From positions 198,723-262,722 of the forward strand of contig PSMU01000001.1 in NCBI GenBank assembly GCA_040290255.1: a DNA stretch of 64,000 nt, read 5' to 3'. The translations under genes and the position numbers were made by a program. The notes beneath the pieces are model-generated. The model was not told the origin of the DNA. It ran no database searches and saw only the letters and a program-made list of their open reading frames with translations. Source of the DNA: Nitrososphaerota archaeon (GTDB lineage: Archaea; Thermoproteota; Nitrososphaeria; PSMU01). Of the stretch, positions 2,411 to 61,076 are shown piece after piece (positions within the stretch are counted from its first letter, which is position 1; every line of letters starts with the position of its first letter).

Positions 2411-4365
2411 GCCCTGCGCAGCCTCAGCTCCCCCAGCGGGCCCACATGAAAGGCCCAGCCTCCGGGCACCACGGTGCAGGAGCCGTACTCCTCCACGAGC
2501 GCGGGCCCCCCATACAGGGCCCCGGGCTTCAGGGCCTCCCTTCGGTAGACCGTTGAAAGGTGCCATTCGCCCCCCGCCAGGCACCTCCTCCGCCCGCTCA
2601 CGGCCTCGCCCTTGGGAGACGGGGGCATGAGCCTGGGCCTGGGCCGGCGAAGGATGCCGTGGACCCTGATGGTGACCACTTCTATGCGATGCTTTAGCGT
2701 GAAGCCGAAGGTGGCCAGGTGCTTCTGCTCAAAGCTCTCCTGCACCTGCCGCTCCGAGCAGGGCCTGGGCACGGGCAGCGTGAGCTCCCAGCCCTGCCCC
2801 TCATACCTTACGTCGGCATACCTGACAAAATAATCCACGCGGCCCAGCCTGGAGCTGAGCCGGGCCTCGAGCTCGGCATACGCGCTCTCCAGGGCCCTGG
2901 GGAAGGAGGCCCTTGCCTCGAACCTCCAATCGGCGAGCAGCAGGCCCAGCGCGCTGAAGGCGCCAGGGTGAGGCGGTATGATGACCTGGCGAATGCCCAG
3001 CTCCTGGGCCAGCTCGGCGGCATGCTGGGGCCCCGCGCCCCCGAAGGCGATGAGCGAAAACCTCCCCGGCTCCAGCCCCCTCTCCACCGTGACGAGCCTT
3101 ATCGCCCTGGCCATCTCCACGTTGATCAGCTCTATCGCGCTCCTGGCCACCTCGAGCGGCTCGCCCAGCCCGGAGAGCGCCCTGAGCGCTGCCGCGACGT
3201 CGAGCCTGAGCTCCCCTCCCAGCAGGCATTCGCCTATCCTGCCCAGGGCCAGGTTTGCGTCGGTGATGGTGGGCTGGGCGCCGCCCCTTCCATAACATGC
3301 GGGGCCCGGCTCCGCCCCCGCGCTCAAGGGCCCGACCCTCTGCGCGCCCGCTTCATCCCTCCAGATGATGGTCCCCCCTCCCGCGGAGACCTCGGCCACG
3401 TCCACGAAGGGGAACCGGACGGGATAGCCCGAGCCCTTCACGAGCCTGCCGTGGTGTGCCTCGCCGCCCACCTCATACTCGCCGGTGACCTGCACCTCTC
3501 CCTCCACGATGGTGCCGGCCTTGGCCGTGGTGCCGCCCATATCCAGGCTGATGGCCTGGCCCTCGTTCATCATCCTGGCCAGCTCCGCGGCCGCCACCAC
3601 ACCCGCCGCGGGCCCGCTCTCGATCAGCTGCACGGGCCTCGCCGCCGCCTCCTCGGGGTCCACGAGCCCCCCTGAGCTCGACATGATGTGCAGCGCGCTC
3701 GACCTTAATGCGCCGCGCAGCCGTCCGAGGTAGCCGGAGATGAGCGGCATGAGGGCGGCGTTCACCACGGCCGTGGACGTCCTTTCGTACTCCCTGGGCT
3801 CAGGGGCCACGTCATGGGAGAGCGTGATGTGCTTTACCGCCCCGCGCAGCGCTTCTCCGGCCCTGAGCTCGTGCCGGGGGTTGGCGTAGGAGTGCAGGAA
3901 GCCGATGGCCAAGGCCTCGACGCCCCTGGCCCTGAGCTGCTCCTTAACCTGCTCCAGCTCCTCCTCGTTGAGCGGCAACAGCACATTGCCCTGCGCGGTA
4001 ACCCTCTCGCCCACCTCGAACCTGAGCTCCTTCGGGACCAGGGGCCTGGGCCGCTCAAAGAAGGGGTCGTACAGCTTGGGCCTGTTCTGCCTCCCTATCT
4101 CTATTATATCCCCGAAGCCCTTCGTGGTGAGGAGCGCGACCCTGGGCAGCTCGAGCCCAATCTGCCCCCTGAGCGCGTTCGTGGCCACCGTGGAGGCATG
4201 CAGCACCTCGCCGACGGGGCCCACCCTCTCCAGCCCCTCGAGCACCACGCCCTCCGGCTCCCGCGGGCGCGTCAGGGCCTTGAAGGAGCGCAGCTCCCCT
4301 CCTTCATCGACGTACACGAAGTCCGTGAAGGTTCCTCCCACGTCGACGGCCACGGCGAGGGGCAT
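2407..4365 (-). CDS. hyuA: hydantoinase A / 5-oxoprolinase subunit A family protein (ATP-dependent)
   Basis: 652 aa; N-terminus MPLAVAVDVGGTFTDFVYVD is the typical HyuA/ASKHA ATPase start; stop overlaps hyuB start (ATGA). Confidence 0.85.
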   Translation of the reverse strand: MPLAVAVDVGGTFTDFVYVDEGGELRSFKALTRPREPEGVVLEGLERVGPVGEVLHASTVATNALRGQIGLELPRVALLTTKGFGDIIEIGRQNRPKLYDPFFERPRPLVPKELRFEVGERVTAQGNVLLPLNEEELEQVKEQLRARGVEALAIGFLHSYANPRHELRAGEALRGAVKHITLSHDVAPEPREYERTSTAVVNAALMPLISGYLGRLRGALRSSALHIMSSSGGLVDPEEAAARPVQLIESGPAAGVVAAAELARMMNEGQAISLDMGGTTAKAGTIVEGEVQVTGEYEVGGEAHHGRLVKGSGYPVRFPFVDVAEVSAGGGTIIWRDEAGAQRVGPLSAGAEPGPACYGRGGAQPTITDANLALGRIGECLLGGELRLDVAAALRALSGLGEPLEVARSAIELINVEMARAIRLVTVERGLEPGRFSLIAFGGAGPQHAAELAQELGIRQVIIPPHPGAFSALGLLLADWRFEARASFPRALESAYAELEARLSSRLGRVDYFVRYADVRYEGQGWELTLPVPRPCSERQVQESFEQKHLATFGFTLKHRIEVVTIRVHGILRRPRPRLMPPSPKGEAVSGRRRCLAGGEWHLSTVYRREALKPGALYGGPALVEEYGSCTVVPGGWAFHVGPLGELRLRRA

Positions 4366-27934: not shown

Positions 27935-29500
27935 GTGGCAAGGGAGGACCTGCTCGACCGCCTCAAGGCGCTGGCCAGGATCGTGGAGGAGGGCATCGAC
28001 CCCTATCCTCACAGCTTCACGCCCACCCACGCCATAGCCGAGATAAGGAGGGCCAACCAGGGCGAGCTAAGGCTGAAGGGCCCGCTCGCGACCGCGGGGA
28101 GGGTGATGGCCATCAGGAGGCACGGGAAGGTGCTCTTCGCGGACCTGCTGGATGAAGGCGAGCGGCTTCAGATCTACCTCACCGCTGAGCGGCTGGGCGA
28201 CAGGTATTCCTGGTTCCTCAGGAACATCAACAGGGGCGACTTCCTGGGCGTAAGGGGCGAGCTCTTCTTCACGCAGAAGGGCGAGCTCACGCTGAATGTG
28301 GATGAGTACGTGCTGCTGGCCAAGTCCCTGCTCGAGCTGCCCAGCAAGTGGCATGGGCTCAGGGACGTGGAGGAGAGGTACAGGAAGAGGTACCTGGACC
28401 TACTGCTGAACGGCGAGGCCAGAAGGATCCTGCTGGTGCGCTTCTCGCTCATCAGGGAGCTCAGGAGGCAGCTGGAGGCCCGTGGGTTCATAGAGGTCGA
28501 GACGCCCATCCTCCAGCCCCTCTATGGAGGGGCCGCGGCCCGCCCCTTCAGGACGACGATAAGGGCCCTGGGCGAGGAGTGGTACCTGAGGATCTCGGAG
28601 GAGCTGCCGCTGAAGAAGCTGCTGGTGGCGGGCTTCGATAGGGTCTACGAGATAGGGAAGGTCTTCAGGAACGAAGACATAGACGTCATGCACAACCCCG
28701 AGTTCACGATGCTGGAGGCCTACCAGGCCTATGCGGACTACAACGACATGATGAGGCTCGCCGAGGAGGTGCTCTGCGCCGCCATCAGGGGCGTGCTGGG
28801 GGGCTATAGGGTGAGCTGGATGGGCAAGGAGCTGGACTTCACGCCGCCCTGGCGGCGCATAAGGCTCTACGAGGCCCTCGAGAAGTACGCCGGCGTGCGC
28901 GCCCAGGAGGCGGCGGAGGAGGAGCTGCGCTCGCTCCTCAGGCAGAAGGGGCTCGAGGCGCCCAGCGAGATGCCCCGGGGGCTCCTGCTGGAGAAGGTCT
29001 TCGACCTCTACTGCAGGCCTCAGCTGCTGAACCCCACCTTCGTGCTCGACTATCCTCGTGAGACGACGCCGCTCTGCAAGCCCCATAGGGCCCAGCCGGG
29101 GCTCGTGGAGCGCTTCGAGCTGTTCGCGGGCGGGCTCGAGCTGGCCAACGCCTACAGCGAGCTGAACAATCCGCTGCTGCAGCACAGGTTCTTCCTGGAG
29201 GAGCAGAGGATACATGCGGCGGAGGTGGAGATGGCCCACCGCTATGACGCGGACTTCGTGGAGGCGCTGATGTACGGCATGCCGCCCGCCGGCGGCATCG
29301 GAATAGGCATCGACAGGCTGGCCATGCTGCTGGCCGGGGCCCCGAGCATAAAGGAGGTGCTGCTGGCGCCCATCATGAAGAGGGTCCTCAATCCATCGCC
29401 CTTCGAGGGCGTAGAGGTGGAGGAGCTGACGCGCAAGTTCTTAAAGGAGGCGCCCCCGCTCAGGCCAGGGACGGGCCAGTGGTCTAGCCTGGTAGGATGA
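27935..29500 (+). CDS. lysS: lysyl-tRNA synthetase, class II
   Basis: Anticodon-binding OB domain plus class II motifs (KVFRNEDIDVMHNPEFTMLEAYQAY, GGIGIGIDRLAML); GTG start; last 28 nt overlap tRNA-Val. Confidence 0.9.
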   Translation: MAREDLLDRLKALARIVEEGIDPYPHSFTPTHAIAEIRRANQGELRLKGPLATAGRVMAIRRHGKVLFADLLDEGERLQIYLTAERLGDRYSWFLRNINRGDFLGVRGELFFTQKGELTLNVDEYVLLAKSLLELPSKWHGLRDVEERYRKRYLDLLLNGEARRILLVRFSLIRELRRQLEARGFIEVETPILQPLYGGAAARPFRTTIRALGEEWYLRISEELPLKKLLVAGFDRVYEIGKVFRNEDIDVMHNPEFTMLEAYQAYADYNDMMRLAEEVLCAAIRGVLGGYRVSWMGKELDFTPPWRRIRLYEALEKYAGVRAQEAAEEELRSLLRQKGLEAPSEMPRGLLLEKVFDLYCRPQLLNPTFVLDYPRETTPLCKPHRAQPGLVERFELFAGGLELANAYSELNNPLLQHRFFLEEQRIHAAEVEMAHRYDADFVEALMYGMPPAGGIGIGIDRLAMLLAGAPSIKEVLLAPIMKRVLNPSPFEGVEVEELTRKFLKEAPPLRPGTGQWSSLVG

Positions 29501-29546
29501 CGCCCTTACACGGCGTTGGTCGCCGGTTCAAATCCGGCCTGGCCCA
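29473..29546 (+). tRNA. tRNA-Val (TAC), intron-less
   Basis: Acceptor GGGCCAG / CTGGCCC, anticodon arm ACGCC-CTTACAC-GGCGT, T-arm GCCGG-TTCAAAT-CCGGC; 74 nt; CCA not encoded. Confidence 0.8.
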
Positions 29547-29551
29547 CCCGC

Positions 29552-55973: not shown

Positions 55974-56843
55974 ATGGCTGATGCTGAGCTTGGGCTGATG
56001 GCCGTCGGCGAGCTGGCGACCCGCGCGGCCGACCGGCTGGGAAGCGATTCATACCCGGTCATGAGGGGGCTGCCCCAGCTGAGCGCCTGGGGCCAAAGCC
56101 CGGCGCAGCTGCGCCGCGGGCTTCTTTCTAGGAGGGAGGAGATAGTCCGGGGCCTTTCCGAGTTCAGGAGGGTGGTGCTGCTGGCCGACCTGAGCTCCAC
56201 GCTGGGCGCCTCGCTCACGCCCTCGCTCGTGGGCCTGCTGGAGGGCAGGCTCAGGGGGGCGTGGGTGGTGCTGCCGGGGCCCCGGGAGGGGATGAGGACC
56301 TTCCTGGCCGGCACGGCCTTGGGCCGGCTGCTGGCCCAGGGCGCGCCCATCCTCGTGACGGAGAGGGCGAACCTGATGGACGGCTTCTGGTCCTCCCCGG
56401 CGGAGGTTGCCCTGGAGCACCTGACGGCCCGCATGGCACACATCGTCAAGGAGGTGTCGCTGCCCTACCTGATGGCCCAGCAGCGCGGCACCTTCCTGAT
56501 GGTAGTAGGCTCCTCCCAGGAGCCCGAGGAGGCCCTGGCGAACTTGGCGCTGAAGGTGCAGGGCTCGGCGAGCTCGGGCGCGGAGGGCATCGTGCTGGCC
56601 CCCGGCGATAAATCGCTGGCCGCGCTGGAGGCGCTCGTGCAGGAGGCCCAGGCGGTGCTTAGGGTTTCGCTGAGCTATAAGCTGGCCAAGCTCGAGGAGA
56701 CGATCGCGGTGCTCGTCTGTCCGCTGGAGGCCCAGGCGGTGCTTAGGACCTATGACCCCCTGAGCGGGCTGAAGCAGCTGGACGATGAGCCCAGCGTGGC
56801 GTTACCGGAGGAGGCGGAGCTGGGGCTCCCCTATGTTCCCTAG
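55974..56843 (+). CDS. hypothetical protein; possible highly degenerate FtsZ/tubulin-fold protein
   Basis: 289 aa; segment order resembles FtsZ by eye (LGLMAVGELATRAADRLG ... VVLLADLSSTLGASLTP ... GTFLMVVGSSQ) but the GGGTG(S/T)G GTP loop is absent; promoter ccttataagcc ~35 nt upstream. Confidence 0.5.
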   Translation: MADAELGLMAVGELATRAADRLGSDSYPVMRGLPQLSAWGQSPAQLRRGLLSRREEIVRGLSEFRRVVLLADLSSTLGASLTPSLVGLLEGRLRGAWVVLPGPREGMRTFLAGTALGRLLAQGAPILVTERANLMDGFWSSPAEVALEHLTARMAHIVKEVSLPYLMAQQRGTFLMVVGSSQEPEEALANLALKVQGSASSGAEGIVLAPGDKSLAALEALVQEAQAVLRVSLSYKLAKLEETIAVLVCPLEAQAVLRTYDPLSGLKQLDDEPSVALPEEAELGLPYVP

Positions 56844-58480
56844 CCCAGCTTGGCCTTAAGCCCCTCTATCTCGTCGCGCTCTATCCTTCTAAATAGCGGA
56901 TAGGCCTCGGCTATCCTGTGGCCCGGCGGGATAAGGGGCGAAGAGGCGCTCTCCCAGGGGCCCTTGCCCACTTCGCCTTTAAGCCCCAAGAGGCGCCAGA
57001 GCCGCTCGGCGGAGGAGGGAATGAAGGGATACAGCAGGATGGCCAGGCTCCTGAGCGTGTTCGCTCCCACCCACAGCGCGGCCCGGTAGCCCTCGCGCCT
57101 GGCCCAGGGCGCCTTGGCCTGCAGGTAGGCGTTGCAGAACCTCGAGAAGTCCATCGCCTCCCTGAGCGCGGCATCGAACCTCCCCTCCTGAAGCCTTTCG
57201 CCGCAGGCCCGGCACGCCTGCGCCATGCGCTTCAGCGCCCCCTCATCCTCCTGCGATAAGGTCCCGGGCTCGGGCACCCCGCCGCCCTCGCGGCGCAGCA
57301 GCGTCAGCACCCTATACGCGTAGTTGCCGAAGTTATCCACGAGTTCGGAATTTATCTTCTCCCTGAAGTCGTCCCAGTCGAAGTTCACGTCGGCCTGCGA
57401 GAGGGGCGTTATATAGGCCAGGTAAAAGCGCAGGTAGTCGGCCGGGAAGGCGGCCAAGAAGTCCCTGAGCGAAATATACCACCTCCTGCTCTTGGAGATC
57501 TTCTTGCCCTGAAGCAATAGGTGCCCCCTGGTGGGAATGTAATCGGGAAGCTTGAACCTCCCGTCGGCCAGCCTCATGGCGGGCAGGAAGAGATAATGAT
57601 GGTACACGATGTCCTTTCCTATAAAGTGGTAGATGGTGGCCTCGTTCCACTTCCTCTCCCCCTCATGCCCCAGCAGGAGGAGCGCGGCGCTGATGTAGCA
57701 GAGATGGTTGTCGAACCAGCCGTAGAGCACCTGCCCCTCCGCCTCTTCGAGCGGTATGGGCACGCCCCAGCTTATGTCCCTCGTTATGTCCCAATCGGCC
57801 AGCCCTTCCTCTATCCACCTCATGACGTAGTTAACCACGTCCTCCTGCAGGCGCCCGTTGCCCCTCAGCCACTCCCTTAACCGGTCCGAGAAGGCCGAGA
57901 GCCTGAAGAAATAGTGGGGCACGCTCCTGAGCGAGGGAGGACGCCCGCAGAGCGCGCAGGCCCTATCCCTGAGCTCCGAGGGCGAGTATGTGCGGCCGCA
58001 GACCTCACAATAATCTCCGTACTGGTCCCTTGCCCCGCAAAAGGGGCAGGTGCCCCTTAGGTAGCGGTCGGGCAGGAACTTCTTATCATGCTCGCAATAG
58101 TACTGCTGTACTTCCCTCCTGTAGATGTATCCTGCCCTATAGAGGCGCAGGAAGAACTCCTGGACGAACGCGACGTTCTCGGGGCTGCTGGTCTGGTGAA
58201 AGATATCGAACTTTATGCCCACGGCTTCAAAGTCCTCCAGGTCCCTCTTCCACCACCCGCGCACGAACTCCTGAGGGCTCTTGCCCTCGCGCTCCGCCTG
58301 GATGAGGATGGGCGTGCCGAAGTCATCGGTGGCACAGATGAAGTACGTCTCGACACCCTTGAGCCTCAGGAACCGGACGAAGATATCAGGGGGAAGGTAG
58401 GTGGAGGCCAGGTGGCCCAGGTGGATCTCGCCGTTGGCATAGGGAAGGGCCGCCGTAACGATGACCCTGCTGAGCGCGCA
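56840..58480 (-). CDS. metG: methionyl-tRNA synthetase (start codon unresolved)
   Basis: Track ORF starts at GTG 58264, but the frame is open 72 codons further upstream encoding VTAALPYANGEIHLGHL (HIGH motif) with no ATG/GTG/TTG in frame; a GGAGGTGATG site lies 1 nt out of frame at 58481. Confidence 0.8.
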   Translation of the reverse strand, partial: CALSRVIVTAALPYANGEIHLGHLASTYLPPDIFVRFLRLKGVETYFICATDDFGTPILIQAEREGKSPQEFVRGWWKRDLEDFEAVGIKFDIFHQTSSPENVAFVQEFFLRLYRAGYIYRREVQQYYCEHDKKFLPDRYLRGTCPFCGARDQYGDYCEVCGRTYSPSELRDRACALCGRPPSLRSVPHYFFRLSAFSDRLREWLRGNGRLQEDVVNYVMRWIEEGLADWDITRDISWGVPIPLEEAEGQVLYGWFDNHLCYISAALLLLGHEGERKWNEATIYHFIGKDIVYHHYLFLPAMRLADGRFKLPDYIPTRGHLLLQGKKISKSRRWYISLRDFLAAFPADYLRFYLAYITPLSQADVNFDWDDFREKINSELVDNFGNYAYRVLTLLRREGGGVPEPGTLSQEDEGALKRMAQACRACGERLQEGRFDAALREAMDFSRFCNAYLQAKAPWARREGYRAALWVGANTLRSLAILLYPFIPSSAERLWRLLGLKGEVGKGPWESASSPLIPPGHRIAEAYPLFRRIERDEIEGLKAKLG

Positions 58481-58489
58481 TCACCTCCC

Positions 58490-59728
58490 TCATAGGGCCC
58501 AGCTCTCCGCATATTTAACCTGCTCCTCGGTGAGCGCGTCGAGCGCTATGCCGTAGGCCCCGAGCGTGGCCCTGGCCACCTCCTCATCCACCTCCTGAGG
58601 CACGGGCACGAGCCTCTTCTCAAGCCTTGGCGCTTCGTTGGCCAAGTACAGCAGCGAGAGCAGCTGGTTGGAGAAGCTCATCATCATCACCTCGGGGGGA
58701 TGGCCCTCCGCGCAGACCAGGTTCACCACCCTTCCCTCGGCCAGGAGATACAGGCGCCGGCCGTCGGGCAACTCGTACTCCGTGACGTTGGGCCTGACTT
58801 CCCGGCTCGCCCTGGCCATCCTCTTCAGCGCCCCGACGTTCACCTCCACGTCGAAGTGGCCCGCGTTGGCCAGCACGGCGCCGTCCTTCATGTTCAGCAG
58901 GTGGGGCTCATCGATGACGTTGATCTGGCCAGTGCAGGTGATGAAGAGGTCTCCCAGGGGCGCCGCCTGGCGCATGCTCATGACCTCATAGCCCTGGAGG
59001 AGGGCCTCGAGGGCCCTGATCGGGTTCACCTCGGTGACCACCACGCGGGCCCCCAGGCCCCTCGCCCTCGCGGCAACGCCCCTGCCCACCCACCCATAGC
59101 CCGCCACGACGACGACCTTTCCGGCCAGCAGCAGGCTCGTGGCCCTTAGGATGCCGTCGAGCGTGCTCTGCCCCGTGCCATATCGGTTGTCGAAGAGGAA
59201 CTTGGTGCTCGCGTTGTTCACGGCTATGATGGGATAAGCGAGCCCCCGCTGCCTCTCAAGGGCCCTGAGCCGAAGCACGCCGGTGGTCGTCTCCTCGGTG
59301 CCCCCCTCGATCCTCGCAGCATACCCCTCGCTGTGGGCCATGACGTGCGCATCCGCGCCATCGTCCACCTGCAGGCTCGGCCCCGCCCTCAGCACATTTC
59401 TTATGCAGGCCTTATACTGCTCGGTACTCTGCCCCCTCCAGGCCCAGACCTCGACCCCCTCGCTCAGGAGGTAGGCGGCGATGTCGTCCTGGGTCGAGAG
59501 AGGGTTCGCGCCCGCCAGGTAGACTTCGGCGCCGAGCTGCTGCAGGCCCTTGACGAACACGGCCGTCTCCTTGGTCACGTGCAGGCAGACGCCCACCTTT
59601 TTTCCCTTGAGGGGGGCCTTGGGCCTCTGGTCCTCTATTATGCGCGTGAGCGTGGGCATGTGGCGCCAGGCCCAGCTGAAGTTAATGGCCCCCCTGGGCG
59701 CCAGCGACTCATCGGCTACCCTCTTCAA
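58490..59728 (-). CDS. ahcY: adenosylhomocysteinase
   Basis: AhcY pattern (NAD site VVVVAGYGWVGRGVA); likely TTG start at 59728 (LKRVADESLA), as the first 30 aa of the track ORF are Ser/Trp/Arg-rich and overlap mtaD. Confidence 0.9.
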   Translation of the reverse strand: MKRVADESLAPRGAINFSWAWRHMPTLTRIIEDQRPKAPLKGKKVGVCLHVTKETAVFVKGLQQLGAEVYLAGANPLSTQDDIAAYLLSEGVEVWAWRGQSTEQYKACIRNVLRAGPSLQVDDGADAHVMAHSEGYAARIEGGTEETTTGVLRLRALERQRGLAYPIIAVNNASTKFLFDNRYGTGQSTLDGILRATSLLLAGKVVVVAGYGWVGRGVAARARGLGARVVVTEVNPIRALEALLQGYEVMSMRQAAPLGDLFITCTGQINVIDEPHLLNMKDGAVLANAGHFDVEVNVGALKRMARASREVRPNVTEYELPDGRRLYLLAEGRVVNLVCAEGHPPEVMMMSFSNQLLSLLYLANEAPRLEKRLVPVPQEVDEEVARATLGAYGIALDALTEEQVKYAESWAL

Positions 59729-61076
59729 CGTTCGCGCCGGCCCGCTGCAGTAAATTAAGCTTAGCCTCCTCGACCTGGGCCAGGAGCTCCTCCAGGTCGA
59801 CCAAGACGGGCCTCCCATTCTCCACGACGAGTCTGCCCTGCACCCACACGTGGCTGACGTTGCTGGGCCTCGCGGAATAGACCAGCGCGTAGACGGGGTC
59901 GTAGACCGGGAAGGTGTTGTGCCTCCTCAGGTTAAAGAGCACGAGGTCGGCCAGGTAGCCCTTCGCTATCCTCCCGAGCCTCTCGCCCAGGCCCAGGGCC
60001 TTCGCCCCGTTCTCCGTGGCCAGCCTGAGCGAAGTATAGGCATCAAGCGCCGTCGGGTCGCCCGAGGCCACCTTCTGAAGCAGCGAAGCGACCTTGACCG
60101 TCTCCAGCATGTCCAGCGTGTTGTTCGAGGCGGGGCCGTCGGTGCCCAGCCCCACGTTGACGCCTTTCCTGAGGAACATGGCCAGCGGCGCAATGCCCAT
60201 CGCGAGCTTCATGTTGGCGATGGGATTTGAGGCTATCGAGGCCGAGGCCCGGGCGAAGTGCTCGGCGTCCTGCTCGCTGATATGAATGCAGTGGGCCGCG
60301 ATCAGGTCGGGGCCCAGCAGGCCGGCGGCCCTTAGGTACTGCGCGAAGCCGCCGCTCAGGTCCACGCCGTACTTCTTCCGCACCTCCTCCGCCTCCCTGG
60401 GCTCCTCGGCCAGGTGAATGCTCAGCTTCACGGGCCCCCTTTCGCCATACCTCTCCTTCAGCTCGGCGTGCAGCTCCGCGCTTCTCCTGAGCAGCCGAGG
60501 GGAGACGCTATAGGGCGCATGGGGACCCACGCAGGCGAAGATCCTGCCCTCCCTCCCATGCCAGCTCGAGAAGAGGCGCTCCGTCTTGCGGAGCCCCTCC
60601 TGCTCGGTCCAGTCAAAGTAGCCGTGAGCTATGAAGGCCCTCAGCCCGGCCTGAAAGCAGGCGGCGGCTTCGTTGAGCTCCTCGCTCTCATAGAAGTACA
60701 TGCTGAGCGCGCAGGTCGTGCCCGAAAGCAGGGCCTCGACGGCCGCCAGCTTTGCGCCCAGATAGATATCCCTGGGCGTGAGCTTTGCTTCGAGCGGCCA
60801 GACCCTCTTCTGCAGCCAATCCATCAGGGGCAGGTCCTCGGCGTAGCCCCTCAACAGGGCCATGGCCAGGTGCGTGTGAAGATTTATGAAGCCGGGCAGG
60901 AGGAGCCCGCCCCTTCCTTCTAGGCGCTCATAACGAGGATACCTGGGGCCCAGTTCATCGTAGGGCCCCACGTCCGCTATCTCGCCCCCCTCGACCACGA
61001 CCGCGCCGTCCCTGAGCACGCGGCCCGTGAAGACATAATCGGCCCTGATGAGGTAGGCCTGCTCGCCCCGCGCCAT
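59709..61076 (-). CDS. mtaD: 5'-methylthioadenosine/S-adenosylhomocysteine deaminase (amidohydrolase family)
   Basis: Amidohydrolase metal-binding motifs (GFINLHTHLAMALLRG, HCIH, GLGTDG); start ATG 61076. Confidence 0.85.
   Translation of the reverse strand: MARGEQAYLIRADYVFTGRVLRDGAVVVEGGEIADVGPYDELGPRYPRYERLEGRGGLLLPGFINLHTHLAMALLRGYAEDLPLMDWLQKRVWPLEAKLTPRDIYLGAKLAAVEALLSGTTCALSMYFYESEELNEAAACFQAGLRAFIAHGYFDWTEQEGLRKTERLFSSWHGREGRIFACVGPHAPYSVSPRLLRRSAELHAELKERYGERGPVKLSIHLAEEPREAEEVRKKYGVDLSGGFAQYLRAAGLLGPDLIAAHCIHISEQDAEHFARASASIASNPIANMKLAMGIAPLAMFLRKGVNVGLGTDGPASNNTLDMLETVKVASLLQKVASGDPTALDAYTSLRLATENGAKALGLGERLGRIAKGYLADLVLFNLRRHNTFPVYDPVYALVYSARPSNVSHVWVQGRLVVENGRPVLVDLEELLAQVEEAKLNLLQRAGANVEEGSR

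What the first reader, a model, noticed from the sequence alone, without database searches (positions are those of the whole stretch)
58264..58492. metG has no in-frame start codon upstream of its essential HIGH motif
The MetRS frame is open from the stop at 58481-58483 through VTAALPYANGEIHLGHL to the first in-frame GTG at 58264, yet those 72 codons contain no ATG, GTG or TTG. Starting at 58264 would delete the HIGH motif and make an inactive enzyme. A strong Shine-Dalgarno-like GGAGGTGATG places an ATG (58481..58479) one nucleotide out of frame, and that frame terminates after 31 codons. Possible explanations are a 1 nt assembly indel, a programmed +1 frameshift, or non-canonical initiation (seen in sequence; the mechanism is inference).
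Basis: partly seen in the sequence, partly recalled or inferred. Interest (0 to 1): 0.6.

Follow-up and report, generated by a model that had tools for sequence, protein, structure and literature searches.

The report
Essential archaeal metG lacking in-frame start
The gene for the essential enzyme methionyl-tRNA synthetase in this uncultured archaeon has no normal start codon in its reading frame, a state kept under selection in two species, so it must be translated by an unusual, still unproven route.

Summary
On the minus strand the MetRS frame is open from TGA 58483-58481, yet its first ATG/GTG/TTG is GTG 58264, beyond the HIGH motif. The only nearby start codons, GTG-ATG (58484-58479) inside GGAGGTGATG, lie one base out of frame.

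It is not an assembly error. Four independent assemblies give identical junction DNA, and a sister species (76% protein identity, dS about 1) has the same layout. The start-less 67 codons are under strong purifying selection (omega 0.07).

NCBI annotates ATC 58462 as the start (MVTAALPY...). That N-terminus would be shorter than in all 128 relatives with a normal start.

A distant second lineage (L162/L125/L133) has the same "GGAGG-NTG + one extra base" layout. Its canonical neighbours use that NTG in frame.

Best reading (about 45%): ribosomes start at AUG 58481, skip C58478 and continue at GCG 58477, giving M-ALSR-VIVT. No slippery or hungry codon supports this, so the mechanism is inference. 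Direct initiation at a non-standard in-frame codon is the main rival. N-terminal proteomics or ribosome profiling would decide.

The parts
56840..58480 (-). MetRS reading frame, open from the codon after TGA 58483-81 to stop TAG 56842-56840. It encodes a complete short-type MetRS.
   Evidence: Translation. Pfam PF09334 E=1.8e-134 plus anticodon-binding domains. Match to P. abyssi MetRS 1RQG, E=1e-141.
58479..58481 (-). ATG, the only canonical start codon near the N-terminus apart from the adjacent GTG. MetRS is in the +1 frame relative to it. Proposed actual initiation codon.
   Evidence: GGTGATG is 7/7 identical in the sister species while the next 13 nt differ at 4 sites.
58482..58484 (-). 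GTG in the same frame as the ATG. It corresponds to the GTG of GGAGGTG that is the in-frame start in canonical relatives.
   Evidence: Canonical relatives have 15 nt between this GTG and codon -3; the window has 16.
58480..58488 (-). GGAGGTGAT, complementary to the consensus archaeal 16S 3' end (consensus recalled, not tested for this organism). It abuts and overlaps the start codons. The sister species has GGGGGTGAT.
   Evidence: Spacers of plausible SD-led starts in the window are 7-13 nt; here the spacer is 2 nt.
58478..58478 (-). The extra base (C; A in the sister species) between ATG and the first MetRS-frame sense codon. Proposed to be skipped.
   Evidence: This base differs between the species. 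In the sister it completes a TGA in the MetRS frame, so that frame cannot be read upstream of GCT.
58466..58477 (-). GCG CTC AGC AGG = A L S R (positions -7 to -4 before the first beta-strand). Proposed first translated MetRS-frame codons.
   Evidence: The sister has GCT CTC AAG AGG = A L K R. Three of the 4 substitutions after the ATG fall on third positions of this frame. R at -4 aligns with R3 of 1RQG. K/R/S dominate position -4 in the family.
58460..58462 (-). ATC, the start codon chosen in the NCBI annotation (MER3601393.1, 540 aa, MVTAALPY...). This is the rival start.
58412..58423 (-). HIGH signature (H-L-G-H).
57488..57502 (-). KMSKS signature (K-I-S-K-S).
58262..58264 (-). First in-frame canonical start (GTG), used by automatic gene callers to give a 474-aa product that lacks HIGH.
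58386..58481 (-). ORF in the ATG frame (31 codons + TGA), overlapping the metG 5' end. Its length is not conserved: 99 codons in the sister species.
58490..59728 (-). Upstream gene ahcY (S-adenosylhomocysteine hydrolase), stop TGA 58492-58490. Its start is called at three different places by different pipelines.
58511..58518 (-). TTAAATAT, a TATA-box-like octamer in the K-Y codons of ahcY, 22 nt before GGAGG. Candidate metG promoter giving a very short leader.
   Evidence: Seen in sequence. The sister has TTAAGTAT at the same distance and the second lineage has CTTAAGTA(T/C). Promoter function is inferred, not tested.

Best explanation
metG is a functional, single-frame MetRS gene whose ancestral start site has acquired one extra nucleotide. 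Ribosomes are still recruited to the conserved GG(A/G)GGUGAUG site, the same site where canonical relatives start. Initiator tRNA pairs with AUG 58481-58479. The reading frame then moves forward by one base before or at the first elongation step: C58478 is skipped and the next codon read is GCG 58477-58475. The product is M-A-L-S-R-V-I-V-T-A-A-L-P-Y... (M-A-L-K-R-V-I-V-T... in the sister species).

The purine-rich, anti-SD-complementary stretch directly against the start codon, together with the empty E site at the first cycle, is the proposed stimulator. This is by analogy with the short SD-to-P-codon spacing that drives +1 frameshifting in prfB.

Shown: the gene is real, translated in the MetRS frame through its N-terminal domain, and kept in this state in two species; an analogous layout exists in a second lineage.

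Inferred: the site of initiation, the place of the frame change and its cause.
For: 1. The sequence is real. It is identical in 4 independent assemblies, and the sister species has the same +1 offset.
2. The start-less N-terminal 67 codons have dS 0.955, dN 0.069, omega 0.073; the rest of the gene has omega 0.19.
3. GGTGATG is 7/7 conserved across dS of about 1. Of the 4 substitutions in the next 13 nt, 3 fall on third positions of the MetRS frame (one is the skipped base itself, one is the synonymous GCG/GCT). Only 1 falls on a third position of the ATG frame.
4. In 128 of 138 unique relatives with a canonical start, the start is never closer than 5 codons to the T of VIVT. Positions -3 and -4 are therefore always translated, and the window keeps the consensus V and R there.
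5. Canonical relatives (L061, L062, L094, L110, L111, L160...) start at the GTG of GGAGGTG/GGGGGTG, with 15 nt to codon -3. The window has 16 nt.
6. An independent lineage (L162/L125/L133, far away in the NJ tree) has TGG AGG TGC ACN GCG CTC GAN AAA ATC, i.e. GTG + 1 nt + frame. Its only variable sites are third positions, although pairwise pS is 0.63-0.82. L162 has no in-frame start of any kind upstream.
7. In some sister-species strains a 480- or 1024-bp element separates ahcY from metG, leaving only about 35 nt of native upstream sequence. Expression therefore does not depend on coupling to ahcY.
8. Short SD-to-P-codon spacing is an established promoter of +1 shifts (PMC10798248, citing Devaraj & Fredrick 2010).
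Against: - There is no slippery codon. Initiator tRNA cannot re-pair on UGC or UGA.
- There is no stop or demonstrably hungry codon in the A site. The next codon in the ATG frame is CGC in the window and AGC in the sister.
- No stimulatory RNA structure was found (z-scores +1.85 to -0.26) and there is no Rfam hit.
- The ORF in the ATG frame is not cut short (31 vs 99 codons).
- No +1 frameshift in a cellular archaeal gene has been proven (PMC8211752).
- Canonical relatives have the same abutting GGAG-GTG and must be read in frame, so the context alone cannot force a shift.
- The substitution statistics rest on 4 sites (P about 0.1).
- NCBI's pipeline resolved the gene with an ATC start instead.
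- The 16S rRNA 3' end of this organism was not seen.
Confidence: 0.45

Rival explanations
1. Non-canonical initiation directly in the MetRS frame at ATC 58462-58460, as in the NCBI annotation. This gives a 540-aa protein, MVTAALPY.... GGAGGTGATG and the following 18 nt would then be 5' UTR.
For: - ATC is a near-cognate codon allowed as a start in translation table 11 (established knowledge).
- It is conserved in both species and chosen by NCBI for MER3601393.1.
- It needs no recoding.
- Non-standard starts do recur in this gene family. In-frame CTG replaces the start in L112/L137/L138/L144 and in L045/L159.
- One database relative (P0011) is called from an ATG only one codon further upstream.
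Against: - Met would sit at position -2. None of 128 unique canonical relatives starts closer than -5, and the solved P. abyssi enzyme starts at -6.
- The start would clip the first position of the Pfam domain.
- GGAGG lies 21 nt upstream. The alternative AGG(G) is only 3 nt upstream, whereas plausible SD-led starts in the window have 7-13 nt spacers.
- It does not explain why AGG GTC (R, V; family consensus) and GGTGATG stay identical across dS of about 1.
- It does not explain why the analogous 5' block in L162/L125/L133 varies only at third codon positions.
Confidence: 0.25
2. Initiation at AUG 58481, translation of 4-5 codons in the ATG frame, then a Ty3-like +1 shift. Two sites are possible: CAG-GGU-C, where the very rare GGU is in the A site and GUC is read instead, giving MRAQQ-VIVT; or CAG-C-AGG, giving MRAQ-RVIVT.
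For: - GGT is very rare in this genome (1.3 per 1000 codons), and it is followed by CAT and CGT (5.3 and 1.0 per 1000).
- (C/G)AG-G can partly re-pair on AGG.
- AGGGTCATCGT is identical in both species.
- The product has the modal N-terminal length.
Against: - The rare codons are a by-product of hydrophobic codons in the MetRS frame, and GGU shares its tRNA with GGC.
- Shifting at GGU gives Q or E at position -4, where the family has K/S/R (Q 0 and E 1 of 123).
- ATG-frame codons 2-5 change non-synonymously at 3 of 4 sites.
- In the analogous L162 lineage there is no room for a late shift, because the third-position variation starts at the first codon after GTG+C.
Confidence: 0.1
3. Sequencing or assembly indel, or an inactive gene copy compensated by another metG elsewhere in the genome.
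For: One extra base is the commonest assembly artefact. Gene callers truncate the gene (474 aa in Logan/ENA, 530 aa in JGI).
Against: - The junction is identical in four independent assemblies, and NCBI and JGI entries for the gene also exist.
- The sister species has the same frame offset despite dS of about 1.
- The ORF is intact over 545 codons, with omega 0.18 overall and 0.07 in the N-terminal part.
- A second copy could not be searched for, because only this window was available.
Confidence: 0.03

Closest known systems
prfB (release factor 2) programmed +1 frameshift of bacteria
   Same: An essential translation-apparatus gene needs a +1 frame change near its 5' end. An SD-like GGAGG/AGGGGG stretch sits very close (2-3 nt) upstream of the P-site codon. 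The state is conserved between species.
   Different: prfB has a slippery CUU-U that re-pairs, and an in-frame UGA that senses RF2; here there is neither. Here the shift would involve the initiator tRNA at codon 1. This is an archaeon, and no regulatory logic is evident.
infC (IF3) AUU start and other near-cognate start codons (AUU/AUC/AUA/CUG)
   Same: A translation-factor gene lacks AUG/GUG/UUG. The NCBI annotation treats the gene this way (ATC). In-frame CTG starts occur in relatives.
   Different: In infC the odd codon sits at the normal distance from the SD and at the normal N-terminus. Here ATC is 21 nt from GGAGG and would give an N-terminus shorter than in any relative.
fucA1 of Saccharolobus solfataricus (the only proven archaeal programmed frameshift; PMC1616953, PMC8211752)
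   Same: An archaeal cellular gene split over two frames yet expressed as one functional protein.
   Different: fucA1 uses a -1 shift on an A-AAA-AAT heptamer with flanking rare codons and a stem-loop, in mid-gene, in a non-essential enzyme. Here the change is +1, at the start, has no heptamer or structure, and the gene is essential.
Ty3 / hungry-codon +1 frameshifting without tRNA re-pairing
   Same: A +1 change in which the P-site tRNA cannot re-pair and the incoming tRNA reads the +1 codon.
   Different: Ty3 depends on a slowly decoded A-site codon and a special P-site tRNA. No conserved slow codon follows the AUG here.

Membership tests
Methionyl-tRNA synthetase (class I aaRS, Pfam tRNA-synt_1g) | Full-length match to the MetRS catalytic-domain profile | tested here: met
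   PF09334 E=1.8e-134, profile positions 2-391 of 391. 1RQG E=1e-141.
Methionyl-tRNA synthetase (class I aaRS, Pfam tRNA-synt_1g) | HIGH and KMSKS signature motifs | tested here: met
   HLGH at 58423-58412 and KISKS at 57502-57488.
Methionyl-tRNA synthetase (class I aaRS, Pfam tRNA-synt_1g) | Anticodon-binding helical domain | tested here: met
   PF08264 and PF19303.
Methionyl-tRNA synthetase (class I aaRS, Pfam tRNA-synt_1g) | Under purifying selection (a functional gene) | tested here: met
   omega 0.18 overall, 0.07 in the N-terminal 67 codons.
prfB-type programmed +1 ribosomal frameshift | Slippery P-site codon that can re-pair in the +1 frame | tested here: not met
   AUG to UGC/UGA cannot re-pair. 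Only (C/G)AG-G to AGG pairs partly.
prfB-type programmed +1 ribosomal frameshift | Stop or slowly decoded codon in the 0-frame A site | tested here: not met
   The codon after AUG is CGC in the window and AGC in the sister. The ATG-frame stop comes only after 31 or 99 codons.
prfB-type programmed +1 ribosomal frameshift | SD-like element about 3 nt upstream of the shift codon | tested here: inconclusive
   GGAGG lies 2 nt before AUG and is conserved. The organism's 16S 3' end is unknown, and canonical relatives have the same element.
prfB-type programmed +1 ribosomal frameshift | Frame offset conserved among species | tested here: met
   Two species at dS of about 1. An analogous layout occurs in an independent lineage.
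prfB-type programmed +1 ribosomal frameshift | Trans-frame protein product demonstrated | not testable with these tools
   Needs proteomics or a reporter assay.
Near-cognate (non-AUG/GUG/UUG) start codon genes | In-frame near-cognate codon upstream of the essential domain | tested here: inconclusive
   ATC 58462 is in frame and conserved, but lies inside the first beta-strand at Pfam profile position 2.
Near-cognate (non-AUG/GUG/UUG) start codon genes | Ribosome-binding signal at working distance from that codon | tested here: not met
   GGAGG is 21 nt upstream and AGG(G) 3 nt upstream. The window's plausible SD-led starts have 7-13 nt spacers.
Near-cognate (non-AUG/GUG/UUG) start codon genes | Resulting N-terminus comparable with homologues | tested here: not met
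   0 of 128 unique canonical relatives start closer than -5; ATC is at -2.

The most novel reading that the evidence does not exclude
Archaeal ribosomes can start at an NUG codon pressed against a GGAGG stretch and take a four-nucleotide first step. This would be an obligatory +1 shift at initiation with no slippery or hungry codon. The solution would have arisen at least twice in metG (this Nitrososphaerota clade and a distant second lineage) and been kept for long periods. It would be the first +1 recoding event in a cellular archaeal gene and a new class of recoding site.
Probability: 0.4. Interest if true: 0.85.

Novelty: new variant of a known kind. Interest (0 to 1): 0.65.

Why it matters
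MetRS is indispensable, because it charges both initiator and elongator tRNA-Met. How it is made without an in-frame start codon is therefore a real question about archaeal translation.

If the frame is corrected at the start codon, this would be the first +1 recoding event in an archaeal cellular gene, and a recoding site without the usual signals. If a buried ATC is used instead, it shows that an essential archaeal gene can be driven from a near-cognate codon far from any ribosome-binding signal.

There are also practical consequences:
- Gene callers give three different wrong or unverified models of this gene (474, 530 and 540 aa).
- About 7% of the MetRS 5' ends surveyed lack a canonical start, so metG may be systematically mis-annotated in these archaea, which could affect MAG annotation.

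Tried and rejected
- RNA structure or riboswitch. Folds of 81- and 131-nt segments of both species were no more stable than shuffles (z +1.85 to -0.26). Rfam gave only chance snoRNA hits (E>2). A small GUGAU/GUCAU hairpin appears in the window's folds but is weak.
- Bulge-helix-bulge mini-intron removing 3n+1 nt. No such motif was seen by eye, and the folds show none.
- Read-through from ahcY. ahcY is in the MetRS frame in the window, but two UGAs intervene. In the sister species ahcY is in another frame and the MetRS frame has TGA TGA.
- Termination-reinitiation coupling with ahcY. The ATGA overlap at 58493-58490 is absent in the sister species, and some strains carry a 0.5-1 kb insertion between the genes.
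- Transcriptional slippage. There is no homopolymer longer than GGG between the ATG and VIVT.
- A genome-wide habit of odd starts. metG is the only such gene in the window.
- Searches for more clade members. The GTDB genome scan gave at best 62% identity. The metagenome pattern scan gave 0 hits and the metagenome protein scan at best 61%. The protein database holds only two clusters.
- Literature searches found no report on a metG start-codon anomaly.
- An unusual tRNA. Only tRNA-Val(TAC) lies in the window.
Full report
**1. What is in the sequence**

The gene is on the minus strand. From the ahcY stop the DNA reads CTA TGA GGG AGG TGA TGC GCG CTC AGC AGG GTC ATC GTT ACG GCG GCC CTT CCC TAT GCC AAC GGC GAG ATC CAC CTG GGC CAC.

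- The MetRS frame is closed by TGA 58483-58481. It then runs uninterrupted for 545 codons to TAG 56842-56840.
- Its first ATG/GTG/TTG is GTG 58264, 72 codons in.
- The translation is a complete short-type MetRS: PF09334 E=1.8e-134 covering the whole profile, HLGH, KISKS and both anticodon-binding domains, with E=1e-141 to the Pyrococcus abyssi enzyme 1RQG.
- GTG 58484-82 and ATG 58481-79 lie in another frame. MetRS is +1 relative to them, and their frame stops after 31 codons.
- ATG+GTG+TTG make up 6.6% of codons in this window's genes, so 72 codons without one has P=0.007.
- metG is the only real gene among 56 long high-GC3 ORFs of the window with a long, coding-looking (GC3 0.86) stretch before its first start codon.

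**2. Not an artefact and not a dying gene**

The truncated 474-aa product is on record from nine contigs. I compared four independent assemblies: three Logan assemblies of different runs and one ENA assembly. Their 321 nt around the junction are 100% identical to the window. The protein database also holds an NCBI MAG entry and a JGI entry for the gene.

The only other member of the clade in 5.8 billion proteins is P0002. BLAST gives it 75% identity and a codon-based alignment gives 76%. It occurs on four JGI contigs. It has the same arrangement...CTG TAA GGGGGTGATG A GCT CTC AAG AGG GTC ATC GTA ACC..., again with the ATG in the -1 register. There the MetRS frame is closed by TGA TGA immediately before GCT.

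Between the two species:
- the whole gene has dS 1.09, dN 0.198, omega 0.18;
- the 67 codons from VIVT to the first canonical start have dS 0.955, dN 0.069, omega 0.073.

The segment without a start codon is thus the most strongly conserved part of the protein. The frame offset is older than a synonymous divergence of about one substitution per site. Assembly error and pseudogene are effectively excluded.

**3. Context**

The organism is an uncultured, GC-rich (66%) archaeon that NCBI labels Nitrososphaerota. No close genome exists among GTDB species representatives; the best MetRS match there is 62%.

ahcY lies directly upstream of metG in the window, in the sister species and in the two nearest canonical relatives:
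- L009 has an ATG overlapping the ahcY 3' end, giving MRSRGRFVVT.
- L089 has GGAGG + 14 nt + ATG, giving MGEVERVIVT.

The K-Y codons of ahcY form a TATA-like octamer: TTAAATAT at 58518-58511 in the window and TTAAGTAT in the sister species, 22 nt before GGAGG in both. The second lineage described below has CTTAAGTA(T/C). If this octamer is a promoter, the metG mRNA starts at about 58488 and has a leader of only a few bases. That is inference.

In two strains of the sister species an element with perfect 12-nt terminal inverted repeats (ATTTTAAAAAAG) is inserted exactly there. It is 480 bp in one strain and 1024 bp in the other. It truncates ahcY and supplies its own TTTTAAAATTAATAT. metG expression therefore cannot depend on read-through from, or termination-reinitiation after, ahcY.

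**4. What the family says about the N-terminus**

I collected 160 related MetRS loci from genomes and metagenomes, which gave 138 unique 5' ends. Positions are numbered from the T of V-I-V-T as 0.

- In the 128 ends with an in-frame ATG/GTG/TTG, the start is never closer than -5. The commonest positions are -8 to -11.
- Position -3 is I/A/V and position -4 is K/S/R in almost all.
- The P. abyssi structure starts at -6, and its R3 aligns with the window's R at -4.
- The window and its sister keep V(-3), R(-4), L(-6) and A(-7).

NCBI's annotation of this very gene (MER3601393.1, 540 aa, MVTAALPY...) uses ATC 58462-60, which is position -2. That N-terminus would be shorter than in any canonical relative, and it would clip the first position of the Pfam domain.

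**5. A second, independent case**

About ten unique 5' ends lack a canonical start:
- Some have an in-frame CTG exactly where relatives have ATG/GTG (L112/L137/L138/L144; L045/L159).
- One group has GCG there (L054/L155/L165).
- One case (L051) is unresolved.
- Most instructive are L162, L125 and L133: TGG AGG TGC ACN GCG CTC GAN AAA ATC.

In that last group the GTG of GGAGGTG is one base out of frame (GTG + C + ACN). Their closest canonical relative, L061, and more distant ones (L062, L094, L110, L111, L160) use that same GTG in frame. Canonical genes have 15 nt between this GTG and codon -3. Both the L162 group and the window have 16.

The three L162-type sequences are saturated at synonymous sites (pS 0.63-0.82). 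Yet the 18 nt after GGAGG vary at only two sites, and both are third codon positions (ACT/ACG/ACC; GAC/GAA). L162 has no in-frame start of any type upstream. So in that lineage the codons immediately after "GTG + 1 nt" look translated.

A neighbour-joining tree puts this lineage far from the window's clade, with many canonical lineages in between. The "NTG plus one base" state therefore arose at least twice. Within the second lineage the CTG subgroup nests beside L133. This suggests that the shifted state was ancestral there and was later resolved into an in-frame CTG.

**6. Mechanism**

The signals that recruit ribosomes in canonical relatives are retained and conserved in the anomalous genes. 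They consist of a purine-rich GGAGG-like stretch pressed against the start codon. In the window this is GGTGATG, 7/7 identical across dS of about 1.

Of the four substitutions in the 13 nt after the ATG, three fall on third positions of the MetRS frame. One is the extra base itself (C vs A), and one is the synonymous GCG/GCT. Only one falls on a third position of the ATG frame.

The simplest reading is that initiation still takes place at AUG 58481. The frame then advances by one base at once, so that GCG 58477 is the second codon, giving MALSRVIVT....

A physical rationale exists:
- GGAGG is 2 nt from the AUG, whereas plausible SD-led starts in this window have 7-13 nt spacers.
- Short SD-to-P-codon spacing is known to destabilise P-site pairing and to drive the +1 shift in prfB (PMC10798248, citing Devaraj & Fredrick 2010).
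- At the first cycle the E site is empty (established knowledge).

The weaknesses are serious:
- There is no slippery codon.
- There is no stop or conserved slow codon after the AUG.
- There is no structure.
- The ATG-frame ORF is not kept short (31 vs 99 codons).
- Canonical relatives with the same GGAG-GTG context are read in frame.
- No +1 frameshift in an archaeal cellular gene has been proven (PMC8211752).

I therefore give this explanation 0.45. The steps "initiates at AUG" and "skips C58478" are inference.

**7. Rivals**

- Direct initiation at ATC 58462, the NCBI model, needs no recoding. It fits the family's evident tolerance of odd start codons. But it lies 21 nt from GGAGG, gives an unprecedentedly short N-terminus, and leaves the conservation of the upstream block unexplained (confidence 0.25).
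- A later, Ty3-like shift at the very rare GGU codon (1.3 per 1000) is possible. It puts Q or E at position -4 and is not possible in the L162 lineage (0.10).
- Error or pseudogene: 0.03.
- The remainder is unassigned, for example position-defined initiation on a non-cognate triplet, or RNA-level events.

**8. Novelty and verdict**

Gene callers disagree on this gene: 474 aa from GTG 58264, 530 aa from a TTG inside HIGH in the sister species, and 540 aa from ATC at NCBI. No paper on this anomaly was found.

It is a real, conserved and recurrent departure from normal start-codon use in an essential translation gene. Whichever mechanism holds, it is a new variant of a known kind (recoding or non-canonical initiation). 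If the four-base first step is real, it would be a new type of recoding site.

Interest 0.65.

Noticed in passing
L005:3426-3905 and L007:2882-3905 (sister species; equivalent to window about 58510): A small mobile-element-like insertion of 480 or 1024 bp with perfect 12-nt terminal inverted repeats ATTTTAAAAAAG/CTTTTTTAAAAT. It carries a 116-aa ORF with no Pfam match. It sits in the last codons of ahcY in two of four strains, changing the AhcY C-terminus and replacing the TATA-like box before metG with its own TTTTAAAATTAATAT.
   Followed up: partly
L112, L137, L138, L144; L045, L159; L054, L155, L165; L051: Other archaeal MetRS genes lack ATG/GTG/TTG before the HIGH motif. An in-frame CTG sits at the position of the normal start in two lineages, GCG sits at that position in a third, and L051 is unresolved. 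About 10 of 138 unique 5' ends are affected, which seems high for a single gene family.
   Followed up: partly
window 58511-58518 (-); L006 about 3901-3908; L162/L112 about 35 nt upstream of TGGAGG: A TTAA(A/G)TA(T/C) octamer encoded by the K-Y codons at the end of the upstream gene is present in front of metG in distant lineages. It may serve both as coding sequence and as the metG promoter TATA box.
   Followed up: no
window 58490-59926 (-): The start of ahcY is uncertain. Different pipelines (TTG 59728) or 442 aa (ATG 59818) for the same DNA, and the 412-aa form overlaps the upstream amidohydrolase gene.
   Followed up: no
P0012, L013, L029 (relatives with VVTCALPY): A conserved peptide-like stretch (F)TEGLALDT(S)S lies 20-30 codons upstream of the MetRS core. 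It could be either a real N-terminal extension or a conserved leader RNA read as protein.
   Followed up: no
window 55974-56843 (+): A 289-aa ORF with no Pfam match, convergent with metG and overlapping its stop by 4 nt. It is conserved in position in the sister species (292 aa) but not in L089.
   Followed up: no
window 29473-29548 (+): tRNA-Val(TAC) is the only tRNA gene in the window.
   Followed up: no
P0123 and P0126: Two unrelated 51-aa sequences are listed as members of the two MetRS clusters. This is probably a clustering artefact of the database.
   Followed up: no
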